A stretch of 64,000 nucleotides of DNA from a candidate division TA06 bacterium 32_111 (GCA_001508335.1 LGFX01000004.1:75654-139653); one strand, 5' to 3'. Positions 31,055-50,796 are shown, numbered from the stretch's first letter. The notes: generated from the letters alone by a model not told the origin. Made by a program: numbers and translations.

Positions 31055-31701
31055 GAGATATTAACAGATTTATCGATCATACACTTTTAAAGGCTGATGC
31101 TACTTTTGATGATATAAAAAGATTGTGTGAAGAAGCGAGAAGATACAATTTCTTTTCTGTTTGTGTAAACCAGGTTTATGTCAACTACTCTAAAGAACTT
31201 TTAAAAAATTCGGATGTGAAAGTTTGTACCGTTGTGGGTTTTCCACTCGGCGCAACTGATATTGAAACAAAGATTTTTGAAACAAAAAGATCTTTACAAC
31301 TTGGTGCCGATGAGATAGATATGGTTATGAATATTGGATACATGAAATCAAAGATGTATGAAAGAATAGTGGATGAGATAAAGTGTATTAAGGAAGTTTG
31401 TAAAAACAAAGTCTTGAAAGTTATAGTTGAAACATGTTTGCTCACAGAAGATGAAAAGAGAGAAGTTGTGAAACTCCTTATAGAAGGTAAGGCTGATTTT
31501 ATAAAAACATCTACAGGATTTTCAACAGGCGGAGCGAAGGTTGAAGATATAAAATTGTTTAAGAGTATTGCAGGAAATAGAATAAATATTAAAGCGAGTG
31601 GTGGTATAAGGGATCTGAAAAGTGCACTTGATATGATAGAAAATGGAGCTACAAGGATAGGGAGTTCAAACTCTGTAAAAATAATGGGAGGAGATTTATG
31701 A
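31051..31701 (+). CDS. deoC: Deoxyribose-phosphate aldolase
   Basis: DeoC motifs: ...SVCVNQ..., FIKTSTGF (Schiff-base Lys), IKASGGIRD. Confidence 0.9.
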   Translation: MRDINRFIDHTLLKADATFDDIKRLCEEARRYNFFSVCVNQVYVNYSKELLKNSDVKVCTVVGFPLGATDIETKIFETKRSLQLGADEIDMVMNIGYMKSKMYERIVDEIKCIKEVCKNKVLKVIVETCLLTEDEKREVVKLLIEGKADFIKTSTGFSTGGAKVEDIKLFKSIAGNRINIKASGGIRDLKSALDMIENGATRIGSSNSVKIMGGDL

Positions 31702-33002
31702 ATCCGGTAGAGATAATTAAAAAGAAAAGGGATGGGAACGAGTTGACGGAAAGTGAAATGGAATTCCTCTTAAAAGGTTATATTGAAGGGAAAATCGCTG
31801 ATTATCAGATGTCCGCTTTCCTGATGGCTGGTTTTTTAAAAGGTTTTTCAGATAACGAAACCAAGATTTTAACTGAGATAATGATGAAATCTGGATATAT
31901 TTACGATTTTTCGGATGTAGAGGGGATAAAAGTTGATAAACATTCAACTGGAGGTGTTGGAGATAAAGTTTCGATCCCACTGCTTCCTATACTTGTTTCT
32001 TTGGGTTTTAAAGTTCCAATGGTTTCTGGAAGAGGGCTTGGTCATACGGGAGGAACTCTTGATAAACTCGAATCTATAGAGGGAATGGATGTTTTTTTGA
32101 GTAAAGAGAAGATGTATGAGATGGTAAAAAAGATTGGTGGGGGTTTTGGTGGGCAGACTGAAAATTTTGTACCTGCAGACAAACTTTTGTATTCTTTAAG
32201 GGATGTAACCGGAACTGTTGAATCGATTCCACTTATAACATCATCAATAATGAGTAAAAAGTTGGCTGAGGGGATAGACTCCTTAATACTCGATGTAAAA
32301 TGTGGAAATGGTGCTTTTATGAAAAGTTTTGATGAAGCCAAAAAACTTGCTGATAGTATGTTTTCTATTGGAGAGATGTTTGGAAAAAAGATGGTCTATC
32401 TGATAACAGATATGTCACAGGTTTTGGGAGAATACGCTGGTAATGGCTGTGAGGTTTATGAATCGTTAAAATTACTTAAAGGTGAAACTGAAAACGATCT
32501 TTTCAAACTCGTAAAGGCGATTGCAGTTCTTCTTATGGAAAAGAATGGAATTGGAGAAAGTTGTGAGGATAGAATAGCAAAGGTAAAAGATGTTATTAAG
32601 AAAGGTTATGCTTACGAAACGTTCCTTAAAATAGTTTCCTCCCAGGGAGGAAATGTTGAAAAGTTAAAAAAAGAGGATCTTTTTTATCAGAAATCTGTGG
32701 AAATAAGATCTGACAAGGATGGTTACATATCATATTTCGATACTTACAAAATAGGAATCGCCCTTATATATATGAATGCAGGAAGATTCAAAAAGGAGGA
32801 GAGTATTGATCACAAAACAGGTCTGAAAGTTTACAAGAAGATTGGAGATAAGGTTTCAAAGGGGGATCCCATTTATGAAGTATTCGTTGGTGATAAGGGT
32901 TATGATGAGAGTATAAATATTTTGAAAAACTCTTATAAAGTTGTGGATAATAAAGAAAGCATTGAAAAAATAGAACTTATAAAATATATAAAAGGAGTAT
33001 GA
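31698..33002 (+). CDS. Pyrimidine-nucleoside (thymidine) phosphorylase
   Basis: KHSTGGVGDKVS phosphate-binding motif. GRGLGHTGGTLDKLESI. C-terminal alpha/beta domain. About 434 aa. Confidence 0.9.
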   Translation: MNPVEIIKKKRDGNELTESEMEFLLKGYIEGKIADYQMSAFLMAGFLKGFSDNETKILTEIMMKSGYIYDFSDVEGIKVDKHSTGGVGDKVSIPLLPILVSLGFKVPMVSGRGLGHTGGTLDKLESIEGMDVFLSKEKMYEMVKKIGGGFGGQTENFVPADKLLYSLRDVTGTVESIPLITSSIMSKKLAEGIDSLILDVKCGNGAFMKSFDEAKKLADSMFSIGEMFGKKMVYLITDMSQVLGEYAGNGCEVYESLKLLKGETENDLFKLVKAIAVLLMEKNGIGESCEDRIAKVKDVIKKGYAYETFLKIVSSQGGNVEKLKKEDLFYQKSVEIRSDKDGYISYFDTYKIGIALIYMNAGRFKKEESIDHKTGLKVYKKIGDKVSKGDPIYEVFVGDKGYDESINILKNSYKVVDNKESIEKIELIKYIKGV

Positions 33003-34641
33003 TGAAAAGAATATTTCTTCTTTTATCAATTTCATTTTTTATTATTCTTTTTTCAGAAGAGTTTATAGATCTTGACGAACTGAAAATAGGAATGAAAGGG
33101 TATTGCAAAACAGTTTTTCATGGAACGGAAATTGATACATTCGAAGTCCAGATAATAGATATAATGAGAGATTCTAATATGGAGATGATACTTGTAAAAT
33201 GTTTAGGAGAGAATGTTGAAAAAACTGGGGTAGCAGCCGGAATGAGTGGAAGCCCTGTCTATTTCAACAATAAACTGGCAGGTAGTTTGAGTTATACATG
33301 GGATAACCTTAAAGAACCAGTTGGAGGTGTTACTCCGATAAAAAGGATCGTTGGACTTAACGATTATGAGAAATTACAGAAAAAAAACAAATTTGATTTG
33401 AAAGAGATATCTCTTCCTATTGTTCTTTATGGATTTTCCAGTGAGATTATAAGTTTTGGTGAGAGTTTAAAAATATTTCCAAAAAACTCTATTATAGCGG
33501 GAGGAACAATTTGAATTTAAAAGAAAATGGAAAGAGCCAACTTTCACCGGGAAAAGCGGTATCCATAAAACTTCTTGAAGGTGATTTTGAAGTATCAGCT
33601 ATAGGTACGGTTACCTATATTGACGAAGATAACATATACTGTTTAGGACATCCTTTCACATTGAAAGGGGAGGTTGATTTCCCAATTTCTGAGGCTTATA
33701 TTTATACAATTCTTCCCAAAAATGATATATCCTTTAAAATGGGATTCTCATTAAAGGATAATGCTGGGAAGGCTACTCAGGATAGAACTTTTGGTGTATT
33801 AGCAAAAACGAAAGAGAGATCTGAAATGGTAAAGGTGAGGATGAAAATAAATCAGTTCGAATACAATCTTTCCGTGGCTAAAGATAAAGATATAATTTCA
33901 AATTATCTTCCCCTGACTTTCCTTTCCGCAGTTTCAAAAAATTTTAAATCTGGAGGAGATCTTTCAATAAAATATAAAATTAATGTTTTCGGTAACAATA
34001 AAAAAAGTTTTGAATACAAAAATATGTTTTCAGGTGATAACATAATGTTGCAAATATTTTTTGACATTTCAGGGCTTTTACAGGCATACACGAACAATGT
34101 TTACAAAAGTGTTAAAATAGATTCTTTGAATATAGAATCTGATATTGTTGAGCAGAATCTAACTTTTGTGATAGATGACCTTTTAAGTGATAAAAAATAT
34201 TATAAAAGTGGAGAGAATCTACATCTTACTATAAAATTGAAGGGTTACGATCAAAAGATGTTGACGAAAGAGATAAATGTTAAGATTCCTGAAAATATTA
34301 AAGAGGATTCTTTAATGGTTACTGTAAACGGAGGAGGTGATGATCTCTATTTTGAAAGTTCAAGGAGTTCAGGGAAATTCGATTTTAAGGATGTTGAGAC
34401 ACTCGAAAATATAATAGACCAGTTAAATCCATCAAACAGTTTGGTTTTACGAGTTACAACTTTTGAAAAAGGATTTATAGATAACAACCTTGAATTTTTC
34501 AACTACCCAAGTTCTTTTGTAAAGGAACAACTTTTAATGGGTAAAAAACAGATTAATGGAAACAACATAGTTGTTAAAAAATATTCTTCAGATTTTGTTG
34601 TAAAAGGTTCTAAAAGCATAGTTATAAAATTGTGGAGGTAA
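32999..34641 (+). CDS. S55 (SpoIVB-like) serine peptidase, read as two ORFs (32999..33514 and 33511..34641) because of a -1/+1 frame change around an A6 run at 33481-33486
   Basis: ORF1 has a signal peptide and the SpoIVB-type catalytic-Ser motif GMSGSPVY. ORF2 continues with the S55 C-terminal region (...AIGTVTYIDEDNIYCLGHPF...). The two frames overlap across 33463-33514. Confidence 0.55.
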
Positions 34642-34642
34642 G

Positions 34643-36583
34643 ATGAAAAAACTTTTTGTAATATTTTTTCTCCCAATATTTTCTTTCTTCCTGAGTGCTC
34701 TTGAAACTGGAAGGATATTAGATACACCTTTTGAAAATATAAAATCTTTGAAAACATCATACGGTGTTATGGTTTCAAAAAATTTTGTTAAAAATGGATT
34801 TGTTGTTGAAAAGGTTGAAACGAAAATGCTCGATCAGGTATTCTCTATTCTAAAATTCAAAAAAGATATTCTTGTTGGAACGGGTGGAAACGCTTATATT
34901 TTTAATGTTACTAAAAATGATACAGTTGCCAAATTTAGAGAGGGAGAGATAATAAAAAACATTTTAAAGATTGATGAAAAAAGTTTTATAGCCTCAGTTG
35001 AGCCATCTGGAATTATTGTAAAGATAGATGATAAAAAGAAATGTGACACACTATTCAAAAATGGAAACAAAAGTATAAACAAACTTTTAAATCTGGATGG
35101 GGAAATTTATGCTCTTGTTGGCGAAAACATTTTTGAGTTAAAAAAGAACAGGTTTGAGAAGTTCTTTGAAGTAAAAGATAGAAACTGTTTGCAGATGAAA
35201 AGATATAAAAAAGGTTTTCTCTTTTCAACAGAGGGTGAAGGGAAACTGATAAATTATCAGGAGGGAAAAACGGATTATATTTTCGTTTCAAATGGGAGCG
35301 AGATAAAGGATTTCTTTTTAAAGGATGATAAGATTTTTATACTACTTAATTCCAAGATCTCAAATACGGATGATCCGTTAACAGAAGAGTACAAATCATA
35401 TATAATTTCCATAGAGAACAATCTTCTTGATACTTTGTTTTTCTTTGATACATATATTTCACAGGTTGGTTTTTTTAAAGATGGTGTTACCATATTTCTC
35501 TCAAAACCAGCGAGAGCATACTTTTTCGATTTTAAGGATCTTTTCTTCTGTGGAAATTTTGATTTTGATTTTGTAACTTCGGTATATAAGGATGGTGAGA
35601 ATCTTTTAGTTGGAAACGATGGAAAACCTCAAATTTTAAAGATAAAAGATAACAATGGAAAAGGGGAATTCCTTTCAAGGGTTTTCGCTTTTAATTCTAA
35701 AAATTCTATAACATCCGTTTATCCAGAATTCTCTGGTAAAGTGAAGGTATTTTTTAGATTTGGCGAGTCTTATGATGTTGATAAAAACTGGACAGATTTT
35801 TATCAGGTCTTCAGCGGTTTAAATAGTAATCTTCCAAAAGCAAAATTTTTCCAATACAAGGTTGTTTTGAACGATGATGAGGATAAATTTAAAAAGATTG
35901 AGATCTTCTATAAAGGTGAAAACAGAAAGCCAAAAATAGAAAATATAGTAGTTTTCCCGCCAAGAATTTTACCAGATTATGCAATGCCCCAAAATGTTAT
36001 AACTGACAAAAATTTCAAAAAGAATCTTTATATGGATCTTAAGGAACAGAATATTTCTAAAATTTTTGAGAAGAAAATATTCGTTAGATGGGAAGGTTTT
36101 GACCCTGATAACGATAGATTATCTTACTCTATATTCCTTAACGATAGAAGATACGATTATCCTTTGATTTCACAAACTGAGGATAACTATATTGTTTTCA
36201 ACTATGAGAATTTCCAAACAGGATATTACAGGATAAAGGTTCTTGTTTCCGATTCAATTGAAAATAGAGAACCTTTAAATGAAGAAAAACTCTCTGAAGA
36301 TTTTCTTATCGATAATAATCCACCAAGAATAAAGGATGACATTTTCCAGAATAACAGTTTGAGTTTTACTGCTTTCGATGAAGAGAGTTTTATAGACAAA
36401 GTTGAAATTTCTATAAATGGAAGTGAATTTAAAGATGTTTTTCCTGTTGACCAGATATTTGATAACAGGGAAGAAAATTTTGCAATAGATATACCTTTTA
36501 ACGGTAAAGAACCACTTTCAATACTTGTAAAGGTTTATGACAAGTTTGGAAATGTTTCTTTTCTTAAAAAGTTTTTGAGATGA
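34643..36583 (+). CDS. Secreted beta-propeller + Y_Y_Y domain protein (periplasmic sensor-type module without a kinase)
   Basis: Signal peptide. C-terminal FDPDNDRLSYSIFLNDRRYDY...NYIVFNYENFQTGYYRIKVLVSDS matches the Y_Y_Y domain pattern. The upstream region has repeated blade-like segments. Confidence 0.45.
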   Translation: MKKLFVIFFLPIFSFFLSALETGRILDTPFENIKSLKTSYGVMVSKNFVKNGFVVEKVETKMLDQVFSILKFKKDILVGTGGNAYIFNVTKNDTVAKFREGEIIKNILKIDEKSFIASVEPSGIIVKIDDKKKCDTLFKNGNKSINKLLNLDGEIYALVGENIFELKKNRFEKFFEVKDRNCLQMKRYKKGFLFSTEGEGKLINYQEGKTDYIFVSNGSEIKDFFLKDDKIFILLNSKISNTDDPLTEEYKSYIISIENNLLDTLFFFDTYISQVGFFKDGVTIFLSKPARAYFFDFKDLFFCGNFDFDFVTSVYKDGENLLVGNDGKPQILKIKDNNGKGEFLSRVFAFNSKNSITSVYPEFSGKVKVFFRFGESYDVDKNWTDFYQVFSGLNSNLPKAKFFQYKVVLNDDEDKFKKIEIFYKGENRKPKIENIVVFPPRILPDYAMPQNVITDKNFKKNLYMDLKEQNISKIFEKKIFVRWEGFDPDNDRLSYSIFLNDRRYDYPLISQTEDNYIVFNYENFQTGYYRIKVLVSDSIENREPLNEEKLSEDFLIDNNPPRIKDDIFQNNSLSFTAFDEESFIDKVEISINGSEFKDVFPVDQIFDNREENFAIDIPFNGKEPLSILVKVYDKFGNVSFLKKFLR

Positions 36584-37605
36584 AAAGAGTTTTTTTTGCA
36601 AATTCCTTAAAGGGAACACTTTCAAACAGTGAAATATTTTTTCTATACAAAAATATTTTTCCTTCAAAAAATGATATTGTTATACCTGTTTCCGATGGGG
36701 GAGATGGTTTTTTAAATCTTATAAAATTTATCCATCCATCTGGGAAAAAAAAGTTTTTCAAAACTTTTTCACCAGATGGTGAAAAGATGGATGTTGAAAC
36801 TTTTGAGTTCAAAAATACCCTTTTCATTGAAAGTGCAAAGATAGTTGGTTTTTTAAATGTTAAAGATATTTATAAAAATCCAGAAAAGAGAAGTAGTAAG
36901 GGTATAGGTTTTATTTTAAAAAAAGTTTACAATGATTATAAAAAAATTTATCTCGGTATAGGTGGAACAACAACCTTCGATCTTGGAGCAGGTTCGTTTG
37001 AACTTTTAGGCTACGAAACTTTAAAATTACCTGAAAGTGAAATTTTGATAGATTTTAAGAAAAATGAAAATTCTATAATCTTAAAAAATCTAATATCTGT
37101 GTGTGATGTTAGTTCACCACTTGATGGAAGATCTGGTGCTTTAACTTTTTTGAAACAAAAAGGTGTTAAAGAAAAGGATTTGAAATTTTATGAGTCCATT
37201 TTTAAATATGTAGCAAAAAAGTATGGTGTTTCAGGCAAAGATTTTTTGGGTAGCGGTGGAGGACTTGGCTTTTTCACACACTCTGTTGGAGGAAAAAATA
37301 TTTCCTGCTGGGAATTTCTATCAAAAAATATTAAAATCGAAAATTTGATAAAGGAGAGTGATTCTGTAGTTATAAACGAAGGAAAATTTGATGATCAATC
37401 CATGATGGGAAAAATAAATGGAGAGATAGTGAAAAGATCTTTAAAGTATGGAAAAAAAGTTTTTGTTATTACAGGTGAGGTTGATCTTAAAAGTAAAAAA
37501 TTGAAAAAGGTTTTAACTTTCATAATCCTTGATAAAAAATCAAAAGATTGTAAAATAGAGTTTTTTAAAAAAGCAAAAATTTTAAAGGAGATAATTGATG
37601 GCTGA
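36580..37605 (+). CDS. Glycerate kinase family protein
   Basis: N-terminal ...IPVSDGGDGF... (ADGGEG-type motif) and YLGIGGTTTFDLGAG (ILGIGGSATVDGG-type) are typical of GlxK/GarK. Confidence 0.6.
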   Translation: MKRVFFANSLKGTLSNSEIFFLYKNIFPSKNDIVIPVSDGGDGFLNLIKFIHPSGKKKFFKTFSPDGEKMDVETFEFKNTLFIESAKIVGFLNVKDIYKNPEKRSSKGIGFILKKVYNDYKKIYLGIGGTTTFDLGAGSFELLGYETLKLPESEILIDFKKNENSIILKNLISVCDVSSPLDGRSGALTFLKQKGVKEKDLKFYESIFKYVAKKYGVSGKDFLGSGGGLGFFTHSVGGKNISCWEFLSKNIKIENLIKESDSVVINEGKFDDQSMMGKINGEIVKRSLKYGKKVFVITGEVDLKSKKLKKVLTFIILDKKSKDCKIEFFKKAKILKEIIDG

Positions 37606-38527
37606 AAGAGTTGCGGTGCTTTTTGGTGGTCCTTCTAAAGAGAGTGAAGTGTCAAAAAGATCAGCGATAAGGGTTTGTGATGCTCTTTTGAGGAAAGGTT
37701 ACGATGCAAAAAAAATAGAGTACGATGGGAAACTTATAGAAAATTTGAAAGGTTTTGATAAGGTTTTCAATGTTATGCATGGAAGACCTGGAGAGGATGG
37801 GATCGTTCAAGGGATACTTGAGTATCTTAAAATACCTTACACAGGTTCAGGTGTTATCCCTTCATCTTTGACCATAAACAAATACCTGACACAGCAGATG
37901 GTAAAATCTTTAAATATTCCAGTTTTAAATTCACACTACATCAACAGAAAAATATTTGAAAAAGATGAGAATATTGTTGAAAAGAACTTTAAAGGAAAAG
38001 TTATTCTAAAACCAAACACAGGTGGATCATCTGTCGGAACATTTATAAGTGATTCTTCTAAAGCAAAGGATCTTTTGAAGAATTGTTTAAACGAGTTCAA
38101 CGATTATTTGATAGAAGAGTATCTTGAAAACGGTTTAGAGGTAACTGTTGGAGTTATCGAGTATAAAGGTAAAACAAAGGTTTTGACTCCTTTACAGTTG
38201 AAACCTAAAAATAGATTTTACGATTATGAGGCAAAGTATACAAAAGGAAAAACCGATTTTATTATCCCACCAGAGGTCGATAGGAAAACCGTTGAACTTT
38301 TGATGGAAAGAACACTAATTATATTTGAAAGTTTGAACATGAAATCTTTCGCAAGAGTTGATTATATAATAGATCGAAATGAAAGAATATTTGAACTTGA
38401 AGTAAACTCTATTCCAGGTATGACAGATCTTTCGGATCTACCTATGGAGGCTGAATATGATGGAATAAAGTATGATGATCTTGTCGAAGAAATTTTAAAA
38501 AGTGCGGGGATTTTAAAAGATGCTTGA
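37595..38527 (+). CDS. ddl: D-alanine--D-alanine ligase
   Basis: N-terminal VAVLFGGPSKESEVS. ATP-grasp motifs. C-terminal ...ELEVNSIPGMT.... Confidence 0.9.
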   Translation: MMAERVAVLFGGPSKESEVSKRSAIRVCDALLRKGYDAKKIEYDGKLIENLKGFDKVFNVMHGRPGEDGIVQGILEYLKIPYTGSGVIPSSLTINKYLTQQMVKSLNIPVLNSHYINRKIFEKDENIVEKNFKGKVILKPNTGGSSVGTFISDSSKAKDLLKNCLNEFNDYLIEEYLENGLEVTVGVIEYKGKTKVLTPLQLKPKNRFYDYEAKYTKGKTDFIIPPEVDRKTVELLMERTLIIFESLNMKSFARVDYIIDRNERIFELEVNSIPGMTDLSDLPMEAEYDGIKYDDLVEEILKSAGILKDA

Positions 38528-39809
38528 AAGGATAACTGAAAGGTTCTCAAACATTTTTTCTAAAATAAAAAACAAAGGAAAGGTAACTGAAGATGATCTG
38601 AAAGTTACTTTAAGGGAGATAAAACTTTTGCTTCTTGAGGCTGATGTTAACTACAGGATAGTTAATGATTTTGTGAACTCCTTAAAGGAAGATATAGTTG
38701 GTAAAGAAGTTTACAGGTCTCTAAAACCAGAGCATATAATAATAAAGAGTGTTAACGATAAACTTGTTGAACTTTTTTCAGCAGGTGATAGAGAGTTACA
38801 TTTTAAAGGAAATCCAGCAATAATATCTTTAGTTGGGCTTCAGGGTAGTGGAAAGACAACAACATGTGGTAAACTTGCAAAACTATTTCAGAAGTATGGA
38901 AGGAGAACTCTTCTTGTTCCGTGTGATATAAAAAGGCCTGCAGCTTACGATCAGTTGAAACAACTTTCTGAAAAAAATTCTTTGAACTTTTTCAAGACCA
39001 GTCAAAATGATCTCATAAAAAGGATAGAAGATGCTGTTGGATTTGCACTTAGAGAGAACTTTGATACCCTTATTTTGGATACTGCTGGAAGGTTACATAT
39101 AGATGAAGAACTGATGGATGAACTTAAAAGGATCGAAACAGAGTTTAAACCATGTGAAAAAATTTTTGTTGGAGATTCTTTAACTGGACAGGATGCTGTT
39201 AACAGTGCGAAAACTTTCAACGAGATGATAAATATAACCGGTGTGATTTTAACCAAGATGGATGGTGATCAGAAAGGTGGAGCCGCTCTTTCAATAGTAA
39301 AAAGTGTTGAAAAACCTATAAAATTTATATGTAAAGGTGAACATATAGATGATATTGAAAAATTTTATCCAGATAGGTTCGTTTCAAGATTACTGGGAAT
39401 GGGAGATATAGTAACACTTGTTGAAAAAACTGAGAACCTGATGAAGGAAGAGGAAACTTTAAAGTTAGAGAAAAAATTAAAAGATGGTAAATTTGATTTT
39501 GAGGATTATCTTGTTCAGATAAAACAGTTGAGGAAGATGGGACCTTTAACTGAGATCATAAAGATGATACCTGGAGTTGGTGGTAAGGTAAAACTTTCAG
39601 GTATGGAAGAGGAGAATGTTAAAAAAGTTGAAGCGATGATAAACTCTATGACAAAAGAGGAAAGAAAAAATCCAGAACTTTTAAATAATAAAAGCAGAGT
39701 TAAAAGAATTGCAAAAGGAAGTGGAACAAGTGTTGCTATGGTTAAGCAACTACTTGTTCAACACAAGAATATGAAAAAGATGCTAAAAAATTTCAAAGAT
39801 TACTTTTAA
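38520..39809 (+). CDS. ffh: Signal recognition particle protein Ffh
   Basis: N-domain MLERITERFS...LREIKLLLLEADV. G-domain GLQGSGKTTTCGKLA and DTAGRLHIDEELMDEL. Met-rich M-domain. Confidence 0.9.
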   Translation: MLERITERFSNIFSKIKNKGKVTEDDLKVTLREIKLLLLEADVNYRIVNDFVNSLKEDIVGKEVYRSLKPEHIIIKSVNDKLVELFSAGDRELHFKGNPAIISLVGLQGSGKTTTCGKLAKLFQKYGRRTLLVPCDIKRPAAYDQLKQLSEKNSLNFFKTSQNDLIKRIEDAVGFALRENFDTLILDTAGRLHIDEELMDELKRIETEFKPCEKIFVGDSLTGQDAVNSAKTFNEMINITGVILTKMDGDQKGGAALSIVKSVEKPIKFICKGEHIDDIEKFYPDRFVSRLLGMGDIVTLVEKTENLMKEEETLKLEKKLKDGKFDFEDYLVQIKQLRKMGPLTEIIKMIPGVGGKVKLSGMEEENVKKVEAMINSMTKEERKNPELLNNKSRVKRIAKGSGTSVAMVKQLLVQHKNMKKMLKNFKDYF

Positions 39810-42649: not shown

Positions 42650-43513
42650 ATGAACATAAAAAAAGATATTTTGAAATGTACCAATTGTAAAAATGTTGTT
42701 GAGATTTTAAGGAAAGGTGATGGTGAACTTTTCTGTTGTGGTAAACCTATGGTAAAAGAGGAATCTAAAAATAATGATAATGGTGTTGAAAAACATCTTC
42801 CTGTTATAAAAGAAAAAGAGACCTATTTTGAAATAGCTGTCGGAGAAGTAGAACATCCAATGACTTCAGAACACCATATCGAATGGGTTGAGGTAAATAC
42901 GGATAAAGAGAGTATAAAAAAATTTTTTAATGTTAACGAAAAACCTGTTTTTAATATTCCAAAAAATCACAAAGTAAAAAATGTAAGGGCTTATTGTAAC
43001 ATACATGGTTTATGGAGAAGGATGAACATAGATGAGATAAACAGGGAGGATCTTATTCTTTTAGCCTTAAAAAATGAGATAGATTCTATGAATGTCTATA
43101 TAAACCTCTCCCAAAGGGTTAAAAATTATTTTTTGAAAGATAGGTTGAATTTCCTTGCAGGTGAAGAGGAAAAACATAAAAAATATTTTGAAGAGTTTTA
43201 TAAAAAAACTTACCTTAAAGAAATTGTTATACCTGTTGAAGATGTTATGCCCCTACCAAAGGTTGATATATCTGATCCCCAAAAACCTATAAGTGACATA
43301 CTCTATGAGGCTATGCAGAGTGAAATAGCAGCTCATGAATTTTATCTTGATCTTTCAAGAGTTTTTAAAGATGATCAGAAAACCTCAAATATGTTGAAAT
43401 TTTTCTCCTCTATGGAGATGATACATTATTCCATTCTTCAGATTGAAAGGGAGAACGCTTTAAAATTTGAAGATTATGGTAACGAGATCCCTATGATACA
43501 TGTTGGTCCATAA
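42650..43513 (+). CDS. Desulfoferrodoxin (2Fe superoxide reductase) fused to a C-terminal rubrerythrin/erythrin-like diiron four-helix-bundle domain
   Basis: Dx domain CTNC...CCG. SOR centre II ligands EKHLPVI, VEHPM, EHHIEW, CNIHG. The C-terminal ~155 aa carry two E...ExxH pairs (NEIDS / EEKH; SEIAAHE / EMIH). Confidence 0.8.
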   Translation: MNIKKDILKCTNCKNVVEILRKGDGELFCCGKPMVKEESKNNDNGVEKHLPVIKEKETYFEIAVGEVEHPMTSEHHIEWVEVNTDKESIKKFFNVNEKPVFNIPKNHKVKNVRAYCNIHGLWRRMNIDEINREDLILLALKNEIDSMNVYINLSQRVKNYFLKDRLNFLAGEEEKHKKYFEEFYKKTYLKEIVIPVEDVMPLPKVDISDPQKPISDILYEAMQSEIAAHEFYLDLSRVFKDDQKTSNMLKFFSSMEMIHYSILQIERENALKFEDYGNEIPMIHVGP

Positions 43514-44747
43514 GGGCAAGTTTTTTTATTCTTTTTGTTAGGGTTGGATGTGAATAGTAAAAGAATTCATAGAATGGATCAACATTGATATTTGATAGTT
43601 CTGAAGAAGCGAATTTTTTCAGAGCTTTTATCAAAGGTGAACCATTTCCCAATAAATTTCTTGAAAAAGAATCTGCTGAGTATTCGAATCCTCTTGATAT
43701 AGAGTTTAGAAGTGGATTGAAAAAATATAAAATGATTTCAGAAAATAAGATAGAGATTAAAAATATTCCAGTAAAAGAGTTTGTTGGAATGTTGAAAATA
43801 TTGTATATATAGTTGTTTGAAAGTAAAGCAAAGGAAGACAGAATGAAAAGAGTTACTGAAAACATGTTAAATATTAGAAGTTTTTGAATGTGTTTCAGTT
43901 TCCCATGTCCTATTTCATGTCCAATAACTCCCAATATCTCATCCTCTGAGAAATTGTTTAGAAGGTTATCATATAGAATCACTCTTTTTTTGTTACCTAT
44001 TCCTGTGAACATTGCGTTGGAATGTGTTGATTTTTCACTCTCTTTAATAACATAAACCCCAAAGAATCTGTAACCTGATCTTTCAATAATCTCTTTAATT
44101 TTCAAAAATAGTTCATCATTTTTTAATTTTTCAGTTTTGTACATGAAAGGTATAAGAACTGTTGGAAAAATGTAGATAAAAATTATCAAAAGTATTATGA
44201 AAATCGAACTCACTATTGTAACTTTAATTAGAGAAAAGTAAAAAATATTTCCAACTATTCCGATAAGAACCAGGATGAAAATGGATGTGAGTACCAAGTT
44301 TAATAACAACTCTTTCAATTTATCTTTCACCCATCCTTTAAAATTGTATTTCAAAAAGCCATATTTTTTCTCTATTTTAAAATGGAAGTAAAAATCGAAG
44401 GGAAGGTTGAAAATTGTTGATAAGATTATAAGGGATGTAAAAAAAAGTAAAGATTTTATCAAATAGTATGTATTCAAACTTTCAAAAAAATTTGAAAATA
44501 TTCCAAAGAGAGGTGAAAAAATGAATATAAGTAGTAAAGTTTTTGAAAATATTAAAGAAATATTGGAGAAGTTCAACTTTTCAATGTTGTAGTTGTTTGA
44601 AAGTTCAAATTTCTTTTCATCCAAAACATCCCTATATATATCAGGTAAATTTTTAGAGTTCTTTTTAATGTAATTTTTCTCTTTTAGATTTAGAAAGATA
44701 ACAAATAAATTTTTTGCTAAAATTACAACTAAGATAAAAAATTTCAT
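43491..44747 (-). CDS. M48-family zinc metallopeptidase (Ste24/HtpX-like), polytopic membrane protein
   Basis: Multiple TM helices. HExxH in ILGVIGHEIGHGKLKH with downstream Glu. SD aaaggag before the ATG at 44747. Confidence 0.8.
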   Translation of the reverse strand: MKFFILVVILAKNLFVIFLNLKEKNYIKKNSKNLPDIYRDVLDEKKFELSNNYNIEKLNFSNISLIFSKTLLLIFIFSPLFGIFSNFFESLNTYYLIKSLLFFTSLIILSTIFNLPFDFYFHFKIEKKYGFLKYNFKGWVKDKLKELLLNLVLTSIFILVLIGIVGNIFYFSLIKVTIVSSIFIILLIIFIYIFPTVLIPFMYKTEKLKNDELFLKIKEIIERSGYRFFGVYVIKESEKSTHSNAMFTGIGNKKRVILYDNLLNNFSEDEILGVIGHEIGHGKLKHIQKLLIFNMFSVTLFILSSFALLSNNYIYNIFNIPTNSFTGIFLISILFSEIILYFFNPLLNSISRGFEYSADSFSRNLLGNGSPLIKALKKFASSELSNINVDPFYEFFYYSHPTLTKRIKKLALMDQHVS

Positions 44748-44828
44748 AACAAACTCCTTTAGAATTATTTTGTTATAGAAGAGATAAAGAAAGTTAGAAC
44801 TACTGTTGGTGTTTTTGATGTTTCACAT

Positions 44829-45764
44829 ATGGGAGAGATAATAGTAAAAGGAAAAAGAAGAAAAGAGTTCGTTGATTTTATTACAACAAATTCGGTTCTC
44901 TCCCTTAAGGAGAATCAGGTCCAATATTCAAACATGCTTTATCCAAATGGTGGTATAGTTGATGATCTTTTAGTTTACAATCTTAAAAATGAGATGATGC
45001 TTGTTGTAAACGCATCAAATACTGATAAAGATTTTGAATGGATTATGAAGAACAGATGGGAAGATGTTGAGGTTGAAAATATCTCAGATAGAATAGCACA
45101 ACTTGCTGTTCAGGGACCTGTTGCTGAAAAGGTTATTCAGAAACTTACAGATTATCCTCTTGAAAAGATGGGATTCTACTTCTCTGCTGAAACAAAAGTT
45201 TGTGGTATAGATATGGTTATTTCAAGAACAGGTTACACTGGAGAAGACGGTTTTGAACTTTACTTTTACAAAGAGAATGCTGAAAAGATGTGGAACGAAA
45301 TTTTTGAAGCAGGTAAAGAGTTTGGAATAGAACCTATAGGTCTTGCTGCAAGGGATACTTTGAGGTTGGAGATGAGATATATGCTCTATGGAAACGATAT
45401 AGATCAGAACACAACACCTCTTGAAGCAGGTATAGGTTGGTGTGTAAAACTTGAGAAAGGTAATTTCATAGGAAGAGATGCTTTGATAAGACAAAAAGAG
45501 GAAGGTTTAACAAGGAAACTCGTCTCTTTTGAGATGGTAGAGAAGGGTATTCCAAGACATAATTATAAAATTTTTGTTGATGGAAAAGAGGTTGGTTTTG
45601 TAACCAGTGGAAACTATTCACCATCTATTGATAAATACATTGGACTTGGATATGTTAACCTTCCATTCACAAAGTTGGGTCAGGAAATAGATATAGATAT
45701 AAGAGGGATGAAAAAAGCAGTTATAGTTAAACCACCATTTTATAAAAATGGAACACATAAATAG
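44829..45764 (+). CDS. gcvT: Glycine cleavage system T protein, 5'-truncated. GcvT-like coding continues in-frame upstream to 44763 with no start codon.
   Basis: ...GEIIVKG...YSNMLYPNGGIVDDLLVY... and the C-terminal GcvT barrel. The upstream in-frame peptide VIEEIKKVRTTVGVFDVSHMGEI matches the conserved GcvT N-region. The first ~30 aa are absent. No SD precedes ATG 44829. Confidence 0.8.
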   Translation: MGEIIVKGKRRKEFVDFITTNSVLSLKENQVQYSNMLYPNGGIVDDLLVYNLKNEMMLVVNASNTDKDFEWIMKNRWEDVEVENISDRIAQLAVQGPVAEKVIQKLTDYPLEKMGFYFSAETKVCGIDMVISRTGYTGEDGFELYFYKENAEKMWNEIFEAGKEFGIEPIGLAARDTLRLEMRYMLYGNDIDQNTTPLEAGIGWCVKLEKGNFIGRDALIRQKEEGLTRKLVSFEMVEKGIPRHNYKIFVDGKEVGFVTSGNYSPSIDKYIGLGYVNLPFTKLGQEIDIDIRGMKKAVIVKPPFYKNGTHK

Positions 45765-45772
45765 GAGGATTT

Positions 45773-46162
45773 ATGAAACTTCTCGATAACCTTAAATATA
45801 CTAAAACTCACGAATGGGTAAAAGTTGAGGATGGAATATGTGTTGAAGGTATAACAGACTTTGCGCAATCTGAACTTTCAGATATCGCTTTCGTTGAACT
45901 TCCAGAGGTTGGAAGGAAGGTTAAATCTGGAGATGTGATAGGAACGATTGAGGCTGTTAAAGCGGTTTCAGATCTTATTGCAGCAGTTTCAGGTGAAATA
46001 GTTGAAGTAAACAACACTCTTTCAGATTTACCTGCAAACATAAATGAGGACCCATATGGAAAAGGGTGGATAGTGAAGATAAAACCTGAAAATCTCGATG
46101 AGTTGAAAAATCTTATGGATAGCAAAGAGTACGAAAAACATTGCGAGGAAAGCCATCATTAA
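45773..46162 (+). CDS. gcvH: Glycine cleavage system H protein
   Basis: Lipoyl-lysine motif ...IEAVKAVSDL.... 129 aa. Confidence 0.9.
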   Translation: MKLLDNLKYTKTHEWVKVEDGICVEGITDFAQSELSDIAFVELPEVGRKVKSGDVIGTIEAVKAVSDLIAAVSGEIVEVNNTLSDLPANINEDPYGKGWIVKIKPENLDELKNLMDSKEYEKHCEESHH

Positions 46163-46171
46163 GAGGATATT

Positions 46172-47512
46172 ATGAAAAAATATATACCTTCCAACGAAAA
46201 GAAAAGAGAGGAACTCTTAAATGAGATAGGGGTTAAATCTTTCGAAGAGTTGATAAAACATATCCCAAAAAATCTGAGGAGTGAACTGGTTGAACTTGAT
46301 GAAGGTATAGATGAGTATCAACTTTTGAAAGATGTAAAAAAAATTGCCCAGAAGAATAAAACTACCGAAGATTACATTTCCTTTATGGGATGTGGTATCT
46401 ATGATCATTACATACCGCCACTTATCAAGCACATAGTTTCAAGACCAGAGTTTTATACCGCCTATACACCATATCAACCTGAGGTATCCCAGGGTACATT
46501 GCAGTCAATATATGAGTTCCAATCTATGGTATGCGAACTTTACAAAATGGATGTTGCGAACGCATCTATGTACGATGGGGCAACAGCTACCGCTGAAGCA
46601 TGCCATATGGCTATGTCTTTAAAAGGCAAAGAGAAAGTTTTGCTTTCAAAAGGTCTTAATATAAAAATAGCAGAAGTTATTCACACATATTTGAAAGGTC
46701 AGAATATAGAATGTGATTTTGTTGATCTTAAAGATGGAACATTGGATATAGAACAACTTGAGAAAAAACTTGACGACTCATATGCTGCTTTCGTTTTACA
46801 AACACCAAACTTCTTCGGTTTTGTAGAGGATGGTGAAAGGATAGGCAAAATAGTTAAAGAAAAGGGTGTTATCTTTATAGTTAATCAGAATCCTATGACA
46901 CTTCCAATTTTAAAACCTGCAGGTGATATGGGGGCTGATATAGCAATAGGTGAAGGTCAGGTATTTGGATTGGAGCAGAATTTTGGAGGTCCTCTTTTGG
47001 GAATTTTCGCAAGTAGAAAAGAGTATATTAGAAGTATGCCGGGAAGAATAATAGCAAGGACAAAGGATAAAAATGGAAAAGAATCTTTTGTGATGACACT
47101 CCAAACAAGAGAACAACATATAAAAAGGGAAAAAGCAACATCCAACATATGTACGAATGAGGGACTCTGCATGCTTATGGCAACAGTTTATCTTTCAGCA
47201 CTTGGGAAAAAAGGTCTTAAAAAGGTTAGCACTGATTCATTACTTTCAGCACATTATTTGAAGGAAAAGTTGAAAGAGGTTAAAGGTGTTGAGATCTTAT
47301 ATGATGGAAAAGATTTTTTCAACGAATTTCCTGTAAAGATAAAAGATCTTGATGAAGTTTACAAAAAGATGAAGGATAGAGGATTTCTGATAGGTGTTAA
47401 ACTTGAAAAGTTTTCTAAGGATTATAAGGATATGCTACTAATAGCATCAACCGAAAAGAGAAGTAAAGACGATATAGATCTAATGGTAAAAAATTTAAAA
47501 GAGGTATTATGA
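46172..47512 (+). CDS. gcvPA: Glycine dehydrogenase (decarboxylating) subunit 1
   Basis: N-terminal MKKYIPSNEKKREELLNEIGV. 446 aa. Conserved GcvPA regions. No gcvPB follows. Confidence 0.85.
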   Translation: MKKYIPSNEKKREELLNEIGVKSFEELIKHIPKNLRSELVELDEGIDEYQLLKDVKKIAQKNKTTEDYISFMGCGIYDHYIPPLIKHIVSRPEFYTAYTPYQPEVSQGTLQSIYEFQSMVCELYKMDVANASMYDGATATAEACHMAMSLKGKEKVLLSKGLNIKIAEVIHTYLKGQNIECDFVDLKDGTLDIEQLEKKLDDSYAAFVLQTPNFFGFVEDGERIGKIVKEKGVIFIVNQNPMTLPILKPAGDMGADIAIGEGQVFGLEQNFGGPLLGIFASRKEYIRSMPGRIIARTKDKNGKESFVMTLQTREQHIKREKATSNICTNEGLCMLMATVYLSALGKKGLKKVSTDSLLSAHYLKEKLKEVKGVEILYDGKDFFNEFPVKIKDLDEVYKKMKDRGFLIGVKLEKFSKDYKDMLLIASTEKRSKDDIDLMVKNLKEVL

Positions 47513-47751
47513 TATTCGTTTCAACACTTGAAATAATACCGGGTAACACTGATAAAGCGTTGGAACTTGTTAAAAAAGTTGTTCCACCTGAAGATATAAA
47601 AATTTTGTATTTTTTACAGATGTTTGGAAAACCAGATTTCTATCTGATATTTGAAGCACCTAACGAAGAGAAAGCGATGGATTTTATCCTCGAGTTTTCT
47701 CCATTTCTTGAATCGTCGACACAACTTGGTGTTCCTGTAGAAGAGTTATAA
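47509..47751 (+). CDS. GYD-domain protein
   Basis: 80 aa. ...YLIFEAPNEEKAMDFILEFSPFLESSTQLGVPVEE matches the GYD family C-terminal pattern. Confidence 0.5.
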   Translation: MIFVSTLEIIPGNTDKALELVKKVVPPEDIKILYFLQMFGKPDFYLIFEAPNEEKAMDFILEFSPFLESSTQLGVPVEEL

Positions 47752-47757
47752 CTGTTA

Positions 47758-48273
47758 ATGGAAAAAGGATATATACAGGTTTATACTGGTGATGGGAAAG
47801 GCAAGACAACTGCTGCCTTGGGGCTTGCTCTAAGGGCTTTAGGCAAAGGAAAGAAGGTTGCAATTGTTCAATTTTTAAAAAAGAATGAAAATTATGGAGA
47901 ATACATATTTCTTTCTCCCCAAACAACCTTTCTCCAATTCGGTTTTTCACATTTTATAGATCCCAAAAATATAAAAGAGGAAGAAAAGGAATTTGTTAAC
48001 AAAGGTATCGAAAAAAGTAGGGAGATTATTTTCTCAGGTCTTTACGATATAGTGATTCTTGATGAAATACTTGTAACTGTTCTTTTTAAAATGGTTGATG
48101 ATAAAACTGTGGTTGAAATTATGAAGAATAAACCTAACGATGTTGAACTGATTTTAACAGGAAGAGGTGCTACAAAAAGAATAATAGAAAACGCTGATCT
48201 TGTAACTGAGATGAGAGAGATAAAACACTATTTTAAAAAAGGTGTAAAAGCAAGGGAAGGTATAGAGTTCTAA
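47758..48273 (+). CDS. Cob(I)alamin adenosyltransferase, CobA/CobO/BtuR family
   Basis: GYIQVYTGDGKGKTTAALGLALRA P-loop is typical of CobA-type adenosyltransferase. 171 aa. Confidence 0.8.
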   Translation: MEKGYIQVYTGDGKGKTTAALGLALRALGKGKKVAIVQFLKKNENYGEYIFLSPQTTFLQFGFSHFIDPKNIKEEEKEFVNKGIEKSREIIFSGLYDIVILDEILVTVLFKMVDDKTVVEIMKNKPNDVELILTGRGATKRIIENADLVTEMREIKHYFKKGVKAREGIEF

Positions 48274-49229
48274 TGGATTTTGAAAATTTTTTAAAAAAGT
48301 TAAAAGAAAAGGATAGGGTTACACTTTCAAAAGTTATAACACTTGTTGATAACGAAACGAAGGAAGGTGTAGAGTTTTTAAAAAAGTTTTATAAGGAAAG
48401 AAAAGATAGTTTCAGAATAGGTATAACTGGACCACCTGGTGTTGGGAAATCAACTCTTTTAAACAAACTTATAGAAAGGTTCGCAAAAAAATATGATAGT
48501 GTGAGTGTGGTTGCAGTTGATCCCTCAAGTCCATTCACTGGAGGTGCTATTCTTGGAGATAGATTGAGAATGGAAAACATTTATAAATTCGACAATGTTT
48601 ATATGAGATCCGTTGCATCGAGAGGTTCTTTGGGTGGTTTATCCTCTTCAACGGAAAATATTTTACAGGTTCTTGAAATATTTGGGACAGATGTGATCTT
48701 TGTTGAGACGGTTGGTGTTGGACAATCCGAACTGGATGTTATGGAGATAACAGATCTTGTAATTGTTACTCTTGTTCCAGAATCTGGTGATTCAATACAG
48801 GCTATGAAAGCTGGAATTATGGAGATAGGTGACATTTTTGTGATCAACAAATCCGATAGGGAGGATGCTTACAGAGTTTCAGAATATGTAAAATCAATAC
48901 TTCAGATGAAATATCAGGATAAAGAATTGACTCCACCTGTTATCAATGTTTCTGCAAAAAATGATACCAATATTGATGAACTTGTAAGCCGTATAGAAAA
49001 TTTGAAAGAGATTTTTATTCAAAAAGGAATAATTGAAAGGAAAAGGGAGATTAGAAGAAAAAAGGAGGTAAGGGAAATTTTAAGGGATATGTTTATAAAA
49101 AGTATTGACAGGGAGTTAAAAATTATAGAAAATAAAAACGATAAGGATGTTTCACCTTATGAGATATCCGAAAAGATTTTAAAAAATATAGATTTCAAAA
49201 GTTTGGAGGATATATGGAAAGAAAGATAA
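48273..49229 (+). CDS. meaB: MeaB/ArgK G-protein chaperone for B12-dependent mutases
   Basis: Walker [13 protein letters not shown]. ...[10 protein letters not shown].... NKSD G4 motif (VINKSD). Confidence 0.85.
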
Positions 49230-49618
49230 AAGTTCTTGTTGCTAAACCTGGACTTGATGGACATGATAGGGGAGCAAAAGTTATAGCGTCAGCTCTTTCA
49301 GATGCTGGTATGGAGGTTATTTACACAGGTTTGCATCAAACTCCAGAAAAGATAGTTAAAACTGCAATAGATGAGGATGTTGATGCTGTTGGACTTTCAA
49401 TACTTTCTGGAGCACATATGACAATTTTTCCAAAAGTTTTAAAACTTTTGAAAGAGAATAAAAGGGAAGATATACTACTTTTTGGTGGAGGAATAATACC
49501 AAAAGAGGACATGGAAGAACTTGAAAAAATGGGAGTTGGAAAGTTGTTTGGTCCAGGTAGTCAGACTAAAGAAGTTATAGATTATCTGAGAGATTGGTTT
49601 GAAAAGAATAGAAAATAA
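49214..49618 (+). CDS. B12-binding small subunit/domain of a methylmalonyl-CoA mutase-like (acyl-CoA mutase) enzyme
   Basis: [20 protein letters not shown] contains the DxHxxG cobalamin His-ligand motif. ...LSILSGAH... 134 aa. Confidence 0.8.
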
Positions 49619-49626
49619 TAGGAGGT

Positions 49627-50796
49627 TTGATGCATCTTTTACTATCAGGAGAACTTCTTGAAGTGAAAAATCTTTCAAGACAAATTGCTGAGGAGAAGAT
49701 TAAACCTGTAAGAGAAGAGTATGATGAACAGGCGAAATTTCCAAAAGAGATAATGGAATACCTTGCCAAATCTGATCTTTTCAGGGTTTTTATTCCTGAA
49801 GAGTATGATGGGATGGGACTTGGTATAACTGGAATGTCTATTGCAACTGAAGAGTTATCGAGAGTTTGTGCAGGTATAGCTTTGGGTTACGCTGGTACAG
49901 GTCTTGGAACTATGCCCATAATTCTTTTTGGAAATGAGGAGCAAAAGAAAAAATATTTACCTCAGATAGCATCAGGAGAAAAACTTGCTGCTTTCGGATT
50001 GACTGAAGCTGAGGCTGGTAGTGATGCTTCAAACATAAAAACTGTAGCAAAAAAAGATGGTGATTTTTACCGTATAACTGGAACAAAACAGTTCATAACT
50101 AATGGAGAGGTTGCGGATATCTACGTTATAATAGCGAATGTAAATCCTGAAAGAGGTATAAGGGGACTTACAGCGTTTATAGTTGAAAAAGGTGAAAAAG
50201 GTTTCACTTTTGGAAAACATGAAAACAAGATGGGTATAAGAGCCTCAGCAACAGTTGAACTTGTTTTCGATGATTGTAAGGTTCCAAAGGAGAACATACT
50301 TTTATCAGAGGGACAGGGTTTTAAAGTTGCTATGAAAACTTTAGATTATTCAAGGATAGGTGTTGGAGCCCAAGCGTTAGGTATAGCACAGGGTGCTTAT
50401 GAAGAATCTGTAAACTACGCTTCACAGAGAGTTCAGTTCGGACAGAAGATAATAACTTTCCAAATGATTCAAAACATTATTGCTAATATGGCTATAAAAA
50501 TAGAAGCGGCAAGATCCTTGACTTATATATCTGCAAAATATGTTGACGGAGGTGGAAAAGATATTGCAAGAGTGGGTTCTATGGTAAAAACATTCTGTTC
50601 AGATGTTGCAATGGAGGTGACAACCGATGCTGTTCAGGTCTTTGGCGGATACGGTTATATAAAAGAGTATCCTGTTGAAAAGATGATGAGGGATGCAAAG
50701 ATAACTCAGATATATGAGGGAACCAATCAGATTCAGAGACTTGTTATCGCGCAGGAGATTATTAAAAGGGGCTGTGAGATAACAGATATGTACTAA
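49627..50796 (+). CDS. Acyl-CoA dehydrogenase (short/medium-chain type)
   Basis: ACAD signatures: ...GLTEAEAGSDA..., catalytic region ...QVFGGYGY.... FAD-binding segments. 389 aa. Confidence 0.9.
   Translation: MMHLLLSGELLEVKNLSRQIAEEKIKPVREEYDEQAKFPKEIMEYLAKSDLFRVFIPEEYDGMGLGITGMSIATEELSRVCAGIALGYAGTGLGTMPIILFGNEEQKKKYLPQIASGEKLAAFGLTEAEAGSDASNIKTVAKKDGDFYRITGTKQFITNGEVADIYVIIANVNPERGIRGLTAFIVEKGEKGFTFGKHENKMGIRASATVELVFDDCKVPKENILLSEGQGFKVAMKTLDYSRIGVGAQALGIAQGAYEESVNYASQRVQFGQKIITFQMIQNIIANMAIKIEAARSLTYISAKYVDGGGKDIARVGSMVKTFCSDVAMEVTTDAVQVFGGYGYIKEYPVEKMMRDAKITQIYEGTNQIQRLVIAQEIIKRGCEITDMY

What the first reader, a model, noticed from the sequence alone, without database searches (positions are those of the whole stretch)
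43491..45764. gcvT has lost its 5' end exactly where a divergently oriented M48 peptidase gene begins
GcvT-like coding runs in-frame from 44763 (VIEEIKKVRTTVGVFDVSHMGEI...) with no start codon. The first ATG is at 44829, with no SD. A TAG at 44760-44762 closes the frame only 13 nt from the ATG (44747) of the opposite-strand M48 metallopeptidase. About 30 N-terminal residues that are conserved in GcvT are missing. The M48 gene's SD and presumed promoter lie inside what would have been gcvT sequence. This looks like a rearrangement or insertion breakpoint. The inserted material may be M48 alone, or M48 plus the dfx-rbr gene. The remaining gcvT is either N-terminally shortened or a pseudogene. 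The usual glycine riboswitch position is occupied by coding sequence.
Basis: seen in the sequence. Interest (0 to 1): 0.55.

Follow-up and report, generated by a model that had tools for sequence, protein, structure and literature searches.

The report
186-bp gap truncates gcvT; probably misassembly
The glycine-cleavage gene gcvT looks beheaded only because this one metagenome-assembled contig lacks 186 bases that every other assembly of the same bacterium has, so it is most likely an assembly error and not an insertion of the neighbouring peptidase gene.

Summary
The gcvT frame opens just after a TAG at 44760-62. It has no start codon before ATG 44829 and lacks the conserved N-terminus.

The interpretation, that M48 or M48 plus dfx-rbr was inserted, is wrong. 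The order mrp, dfx-rbr, M48, gcvT is found in eight other assemblies of the same species. M48 also sits divergently next to gcvT in two related species.

The window matches a JGI contig at all 64,000 bases, and an NCBI MAG over the parts compared. The one difference is a 186-bp segment missing between 44771 and 44772. That segment holds two conserved back-to-back promoters, the gcvT Shine-Dalgarno (SD) site, its start codon and its first 32-36 codons.

The junction has no microhomology, and the remaining gcvT shows no decay. No glycine riboswitch exists in the intact locus either.

The 311-aa ORF equals KUK51184.1 from "candidate division TA06 bacterium 32_111". That MAG is an uncurated IDBA-UD assembly, and its sister MAG 34_109 is intact.

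- **Most likely (about 0.78):** a local assembly or scaffold-gap error.
- **Alternative (about 0.2):** a very recent real deletion that removes gcvT function and both promoters.

Either way the finding is of low interest.

The parts
42650..43513 (+). Desulfoferrodoxin-rubrerythrin fusion gene (287 aa). It is an ancestral neighbour, not inserted material.
   Evidence: Pfam PF06397, PF01880 and PF02915. Same gene at the same place in all same-species contigs.
43491..44747 (-). M48 (Ste24/Zmpste24-like) metallopeptidase CDS, intact at 418 aa, start ATG at 44747.
   Evidence: Pfam PF16491 and PF01435. Exactly this protein occurs in 4 NCBI MAGs. The start is conserved in L001 and L002.
44754..44759 (-). 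Native Shine-Dalgarno site of M48 (AAGGAG on the - strand), 6 nt before the ATG.
   Evidence: Read directly. The same CTCCTT is present next to the M48 start in L001 and in intact same-species contigs.
44760..44762 (+). TAG that closes the gcvT frame. It belongs to the retained M48-proximal intergenic sequence.
44771..44772 (.). Junction. 186 bp present in all other assemblies (L011 2814-2999) are absent between these two bases.
   Evidence: BLAST and exact string comparison: 100% identity on both sides, 0 nt microhomology, no flanking repeat of 8 nt or more.
44772..45764 (+). gcvT remnant: codons 33-362 of the 362-aa protein plus the stop codon, nucleotide-identical to intact alleles.
44829..44831 (+). 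First in-frame ATG, equal to Met52 of the universal DVSHMGE motif. No SD. This is the start of the deposited 311-aa protein KUK51184.1.
45773..46162 (+). gcvH, intact. It would lose its operon promoter if the gap is real.
   Evidence: Pfam PF01597. Identical protein in 19 contigs.
46172..47512 (+). gcvPA (glycine dehydrogenase subunit 1), intact.
   Evidence: PF02347 in the precomputed annotations.

Best explanation
gcvT appears truncated because this contig lacks 186 bp between window 44771 and 44772. The contig comes from the MAG 'candidate division TA06 bacterium 32_111'.

**What the missing segment holds.** It is the native M48/gcvT divergent control region plus the 5' end of gcvT:
- a - strand promoter for M48 (TTGAAA-16-TAAAAT);
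- a + strand promoter for gcvT (TTGAAT-16-TATAAT);
- the gcvT SD (GGAGG) and its TTG/ATG start;
- the first 32-36 codons of gcvT.

M48 and dfx-rbr are ancestral neighbours. Nothing was inserted.

**Most likely cause.** The gap is a local assembly or scaffolding error in an uncurated IDBA-UD metagenome assembly. An unassembled stretch, whose intergenic part is 20% G+C, was probably closed without Ns. On this reading the organism has a normal gcvT-gcvH-gcvPA operon.

**Shown:** the 186-bp difference, its content, the conserved synteny and the origin of the window.
**Inferred:** that the gap is an artefact and not a real allele.
For: **The only difference in 64 kb**
- All 64,000 window bases match tiles of JGI contig Ga0136247_10000002 with 0 mismatches and 0 other indels. 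NCBI DMCX01000035.1 is identical over the parts compared (window 25896-39490 was not tiled for it). The only difference is the 186 bp.
- The identical 186 bp with identical flanks occurs in 13 loci from 8 distinct samples or assemblies. None carries the junction.

**Database picture**
- In the 17-member 90% cluster, the full-length members listed are 362 or 366 aa.
- The shorter entries are P0128 (323 aa, on a 2.4-kb contig), P0134 (103 aa, on a 1.4-kb contig) and the 311-aa KUK51184.1. Only KUK51184.1 sits on a long contig (254 kb). It equals the window ORF exactly.
- The sister MAG 34_109 from the same study is intact.

**Assembly method**
- That study assembled with IDBA-UD and binned scaffolds (PMC4725000).
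- Chen et al. [quoted passage not shown] They report 13 in one 1.13-Mb genome, about one per 90 kb (PMC7111523). One error in 64 kb fits that rate.

**Features of the junction and the remnant**
- The junction has 0 nt microhomology and no flanking repeat of 8 nt or more. That is untypical of slippage deletions.
- The gcvT remnant has no substitutions relative to intact alleles.
- The missing intergenic part is 20% G+C.
- Other contigs of the same species end inside or beside this segment: L015 begins inside it at L011 coordinate 2918, and L013 begins 103 nt to its left at 2711. Contigs of related species also end just upstream of gcvT (L001, L005, L006, L008). The spot is fragile in assembly.

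**Selection**
- Both promoters are conserved in three species, so losing them would be selected against.
Against: - No reads could be mapped, so the junction's read support is unknown.
- The contig has no Ns at the junction, and coverage of the bin was nominally high (name suffix _111).
- De Bruijn mis-joins usually happen at shared k-mers, and none exist here. The artefact would therefore have to arise at the scaffolding or gap-handling stage, which I cannot verify.
- Real deletions without microhomology do occur.
- The DNA scans of genome contigs and metagenome contigs were uninformative. Neither the junction nor the intact allele was found there.
Confidence: 0.78

Rival explanations
1. The deletion is real and very recent in the population sampled for bin 32_111. 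It removes both divergent promoters, the gcvT ribosome-binding site and start, and 32-36 codons. That gives a gcvT null allele, probably silences gcvH and gcvPA (no co-directional upstream gene to read through from), and lowers M48 expression.
For: - The sequence is deposited as continuous contig sequence without Ns.
- As written, the ORF has no start codon or SD, and both 10/12 promoter matches are gone.
- The T-protein N-terminus is described as essential for proper H-protein binding (Lee et al. 2004, as cited in bioRxiv 10.1101/2020.03.16.993188).
- The missing residues align without gaps to the start of the solved structures 1YX2 and 1WOO. A product made from ATG 44829 would therefore very likely be inactive.
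Against: - There are zero SNPs or other indels in 64 kb against other assemblies. A fixed 186-bp deletion would be the only difference.
- It is absent from 8 other samples and from the sister MAG.
- No microhomology at the junction.
- No decay of the remnant.
- It destroys conserved elements of a conserved operon.
- The assembler used has a published record of local errors at about this density.
Confidence: 0.2
2. One reading: an insertion or rearrangement placed M48 (or M48 plus dfx-rbr) into the 5' end of gcvT.
For: Only the appearance of the junction in this single sequence.
Against: - M48 is divergently adjacent to a full-length gcvT in all same-species contigs and in the related species L002. 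In L001 the start of an opposite-strand gene with the same N-terminal sequence sits there. The intergenic region is about 100 nt in each.
- The M48 start and SD are conserved.
- The window differs from intact contigs by absence of 186 bp, not by presence of extra DNA.
- No repeats, target duplication or mobile-element genes are present.
Confidence: 0.01
3. A lineage-typical short GcvT, or a full-function protein started from a non-canonical codon upstream of 44829.
For: The frame stays open for 22 codons upstream of ATG 44829.
Against: - The 120 best hits listed are 337-398 aa, and the closest relatives are 353-366 aa with a conserved N-terminal block.
- The only near-cognate codons are two ATA, neither with an SD.
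- Pfam profile positions 1-29 are missing.
- The identical allele elsewhere is 362 or 366 aa.
Confidence: 0.01

Closest known systems
Local assembly errors in uncurated IDBA-UD metagenome scaffolds (Chen, Anantharaman, Shaiber, Eren and Banfield 2020, Genome Res 30:315; PMC7111523)
   Same: - A single short discrepancy in an otherwise perfect contig from an IDBA-UD MAG.
[quoted passage not shown]
- The density, about 1 per 64 kb, is close to the 13 per 1.13 Mb they report.
   Different: The defining test, that no read supports the consensus at the junction, could not be run here. The error here is a clean omission, not garbled sequence.
Bacterial pseudogenes formed by deletion of the promoter and 5' end
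   Same: Loss of promoter, ribosome-binding site, start codon and N-terminal codons, leaving an otherwise intact ORF. Downstream operon genes are left without a promoter.
   Different: - Real cases usually show microhomology at the junction, linked polymorphisms or later decay. None is seen here.
- The allele is seen in only one assembly.
gcvT-gcvH-gcvP operons controlled by the glycine riboswitch (Rfam RF00504)
   Same: Same operon type (gcvT, gcvH, gcvPA in a row).
   Different: No glycine riboswitch in the window, in the intact same-species locus, or in related species. The intact leader is only about 30 nt after a sigma-70-like promoter.
Aminomethyltransferase GcvT with solved structures (B. 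subtilis 1YX2, T. maritima 1WOO, E. coli 3A8I)
   Same: The intact allele aligns end to end with them, E = 7e-105 to 9e-62.
   Different: The window copy lacks the residues that align to positions 4-35 of 1YX2 and to the first 31 positions of 1WOO.

Membership tests
GcvT aminomethyltransferase (PF01571 + PF08669) | Complete folate-binding domain, profile positions 1-255 | tested here: not met
   The window ORF covers only profile positions 30-255. The intact allele P0122 aligns from residue 1 to solved GcvT structures.
GcvT aminomethyltransferase (PF01571 + PF08669) | C-terminal barrel domain, and a gcvH and gcvP genomic context | tested here: met
   PF08669 at 2.9e-24, with gcvH and gcvPA immediately downstream.
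GcvT aminomethyltransferase (PF01571 + PF08669) | A usable translation start (start codon plus SD) and a promoter | tested here: not met
   No ATG, GTG or TTG before 44829 and no SD. The 10/12 promoter of the intact locus is absent.
Peptidase M48 / Ste24-like | N-terminal five-helix membrane domain plus M48 catalytic domain with an HExxH motif | tested here: met
   PF16491 at 3.1e-29 and PF01435 at 1.3e-30. HEIGH is present in the translation.
Glycine riboswitch (RF00504) | Covariance-model match upstream of gcvT | tested here: not met
   No match at gathering score in the window or in L001-L004 and L011. No match at E<=1 in the intact intergenic region.
Insertion or mobile-element breakpoint | Extra DNA relative to relatives; terminal repeats or target duplication; mobility genes | tested here: not met
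   Relatives have the same neighbours. The window has less DNA, not more. No repeats of 8 nt or more at the junction.
Local assembly error | Discrepancy absent from independent assemblies of the same population | tested here: met
   8 other samples or assemblies and the sister MAG carry the 186 bp. The rest of the window is identical.
Local assembly error | No sequencing read supports the consensus across the junction | not testable with these tools
   The raw reads (SRP057267) cannot be mapped here.

The most novel reading that the evidence does not exclude
The 186-bp deletion is a genuine, very recent allele that became the majority in one Alaskan oil-reservoir population of this TA06/WOR-3 bacterium. 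One event would then switch off the glycine cleavage operon (gcvT null, gcvH and gcvPA without a promoter) and the divergent M48 protease, by removing a shared back-to-back promoter region.
Probability: 0.2. Interest if true: 0.25.

Novelty: not a real feature. Interest (0 to 1): 0.08.

Why it matters
The main value is as a curation point. A truncated 311-aa "aminomethyltransferase" (KUK51184.1) sits in public databases. It could lead metabolic reconstructions of this candidate-phylum MAG to score the glycine cleavage system as defective, or to infer a rearrangement.

The comparison also defines the native control region. It is a compact pair of conserved divergent sigma-70-like promoters for M48 and gcvT, and this lineage uses no glycine riboswitch.

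If the deletion were real it would be an ordinary loss-of-function allele of local ecological interest only.

Tried and rejected
- **Missing 5' end elsewhere.** I looked in other frames and upstream. All three + frames upstream of 44763 are closed and unrelated.
- **Short-form GcvT lineage.** Rejected by the homologue lengths.
- **M48 insertion.** Rejected by synteny.
- **Strain-variation bubble at the junction as the cause of misassembly.** Not supported. Other strains (L009, L012, L013) first diverge from the window about 2-4 kb further right, at L011 coordinates 4951 and 7082.
- **Junction 37-mer in genome contigs and metagenome contigs.** No hits. The control 40-mer for the intact allele also gave no hits. 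Those collections evidently lack this species' contigs, so the negatives carry no information.
- **Exact look-up of the 311-aa product by position index.** Nothing found, although the cluster look-up later found it as KUK51184.1.
- **Tracing GCA_003485365.1 to its source reads through Parks et al. 2017, and the bin table of Hu et al. 2016.** Paper or supplements are not held.
- **Automatic alignment of the intergenic region across species.** MAFFT misaligned it. I resolved it by reading the sequences and by BLAST.

Full report
**1. Observation**

The sequence is as described.
- In the gcvT frame a TAG sits at 44760-62.
- The frame then reads NYFVIEEIKKVRTTVGVFDVSHMGE.
- The first ATG, GTG or TTG is ATG 44829. 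That codon is the Met of the universal DVSHMGE motif.
- No SD precedes it, although neighbouring genes have clear SDs.
- The opposite-strand M48 peptidase starts at 44747, with AAGGAG 6 nt upstream.

Pfam finds GCV_T only from profile position 30 of 255, plus a complete GCV_T_C domain. The M48 protein is a complete Ste24-like protein with PF16491 and PF01435.

**2. Relatives have a full-length protein**

- The 120 best database hits listed are 337-398 aa, and the closest relatives are 353-366 aa.
- In alignment the window protein lacks an N-terminal block containing ten nearly invariant columns.
- This is therefore not a lineage-typical short form.

**3. M48 was not inserted**

- A relative with 85% identical GcvT (L002) has M48 divergently upstream of gcvT, with a 106-nt spacer.
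- The closest other species (L001, 92%) has, 99 nt upstream of gcvT, the start of an opposite-strand gene whose sequence (ATGAAATTT...) matches the M48 N-terminus.
- Contigs carrying exactly the window's GcvH or M48 protein all show mrp, dfx-rbr, M48, then gcvT (362 or 366 aa), gcvH and gcvPA.

**4. What actually differs**

- BLAST of the window against these contigs gives 100% identity up to 44771 and again from 44772. The other contigs hold an extra 186 bp, at L011 2814-2999.
- Exact comparison shows that all 64,000 window bases match tiles of JGI contig Ga0136247_10000002 with zero mismatches and no other indel. NCBI DMCX01000035.1 is identical wherever it was compared.
- The 186-bp segment with identical flanks is present in 13 fetched loci from 8 distinct samples. 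None has the junction.
- The junction has 0 nt of microhomology on either side and no flanking repeat of 8 nt or more.

**5. Content of the missing segment**

- It holds two back-to-back promoter-like sites, each matching 10 of 12 consensus positions.
  - On the + strand, TTGAAT-16-TATAAT at L011 2847-2874, for gcvT.
  - On the - strand, TTGAAA-16-TAAAAT at L011 2836-2809, for M48.
- The same pair, in the same arrangement, is found in L001. In L002 the + strand site is again 10/12 and the - strand site (TTGAAT-16-TATATT) is 9/12. This is a phylogenetic footprint.
- Next comes ATGGAGGTtaaaTTG, which holds the SD (GGAGG) and the TTG or ATG start.
- Then follow codons 1-32 of the 362-aa form (or 1-36 of the 366-aa form).
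- In the window neither promoter remains. Only chance-level 9/12 matches are found.
- The gap removes the -35 hexamer, the spacer and the first base of the -10 hexamer of the M48 promoter.
- No glycine riboswitch is detected in the window, in the intact intergenic region at E<=1, or in related loci. The "riboswitch position" argument therefore does not apply to this lineage.

**6. Source of the window**

- The 311-aa ORF is identical to KUK51184.1, [quoted passage not shown]. Among the listed members of a 17-member 90% cluster, it is the only shortened one on a long contig.
- The other listed members are 362 or 366 aa, apart from two shorter entries on 1.4-2.4-kb contigs.
- The sister MAG 34_109 (KUK87836.1) is 362 aa and identical over the shared part.
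- The window's G+C content is 32%, which fits the bin name.
- Both MAGs come from Hu et al. 2016, from Alaska North Slope Schrader Bluff samples. They were assembled with IDBA-UD and binned from scaffolds (PMC4725000).

**7. Artefact or allele?**

Points that favour an assembly artefact:
- Chen et al. [quoted passage not shown] They report 13 in one 1.13-Mb genome, about one per 90 kb, and note that such errors propagate incomplete genes into databases (PMC7111523). One discrepancy in a 64-kb window fits that rate.
- A real deletion would be the only difference in 64 kb from several other assemblies.
- It would lack microhomology.
- It would have left no decay in the gcvT remnant.
- It would have destroyed two conserved promoters and a conserved enzyme.
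- The missing intergenic part is 20% G+C.
- Several other contigs of the same and related species end within or next to it. L015 begins inside the segment, L013 begins 103 nt to its left, and L001, L005, L006 and L008 end 50-301 nt upstream of gcvT. The spot seems hard to assemble.

I therefore rate a scaffold or gap-handling error at about 0.78 and a genuine recent deletion at about 0.2. I could not map reads, so this is inference. My recollection that IDBA's scaffolder can join contigs without Ns when the gap estimate is not positive is from memory and unverified.

**8. Consequences if the deletion is real**

- The gcvT product would lack residues that align, without gaps, to the first 31-32 residues of solved GcvT structures.
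- The N-terminus is described as essential for proper H-protein binding (Lee et al. 2004, as cited in bioRxiv 10.1101/2020.03.16.993188).
- With no promoter, SD or start codon, gcvT would be null.
- gcvH and gcvPA would lack their operon promoter, because the upstream gene is on the opposite strand.
- M48 would lose its -35 region.

**9. Verdict**

- The insertion interpretation is refuted.
- The feature is a 186-bp gap private to one uncurated MAG contig, and it is most probably not biological.
- Interest is low.

Noticed in passing
window 44829-45764 (public record KUK51184.1): The truncated 311-aa protein is deposited in GenBank as 'Aminomethyltransferase' of TA06 bacterium 32_111. The error, or allele, is thus already in public protein databases.
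   Followed up: yes
window 43491-44747; L011 1533-2846: The M48 gene is called as 418 aa by NCBI but as 437 aa in Logan and JGI gene calls, which start inside the intergenic promoter region. The 418-aa start has an AAGGAG SD and is conserved in L001 and L002, so the 437-aa calls look over-extended.
   Followed up: partly
window 43491-43513: The convergent dfx-rbr fusion gene and the M48 gene overlap by 23 nt at their 3' ends, which leaves no room for a terminator between them. The dfx-rbr protein fuses the desulfoferrodoxin N-terminal domain, desulfoferrodoxin and rubrerythrin in 287 aa.
   Followed up: no
L009 from L011 coordinate 4951 (about window 46723); L012 and L013 from L011 coordinate 7082 (about window 48854): Other strains are 100% identical to the window up to a sharp point, then become 3-4% divergent with dense SNPs (inside gcvPA in L009, near the 3' end of the MeaB-like gene in L012 and L013). 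This looks like homologous-recombination mosaicism between strains.
   Followed up: partly
window 45773-50796: The operon continues gcvT, gcvH, gcvPA, an 80-aa GYD-like protein, a cob(I)alamin adenosyltransferase-like protein, MeaB, a B12-binding domain protein and an acyl-CoA dehydrogenase. Only one PF02347 (GDC-P) gene is listed for the loci tiling the window, so no gcvPB candidate was seen and it is presumably encoded elsewhere.
   Followed up: partly
L003 9048-10001 versus L004 6349-7147: In the clade with 81% identical GcvT (P0004), contigs with the identical GcvT protein have different upstream neighbours: SHMT and DUF1015 in L003, a DNA methyltransferase cluster in L004. There are 800-950 bp without called genes before gcvT. 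L003 and L004 align only over the last ~420 bp before the gcvT start (a 524-bp match that includes the first ~100 bp of gcvT). The upstream edge of the gcv operon is a synteny breakpoint there.
   Followed up: partly
Genome contigs and metagenome contigs collections: A 40-mer from the intact allele, present in JGI 3300010235 contig Ga0136247_10000002 (L010), was not found by the metagenome-contig scan or in genome contigs. Negative DNA-pattern scans for this species in those collections therefore carry no information.
   Followed up: yes
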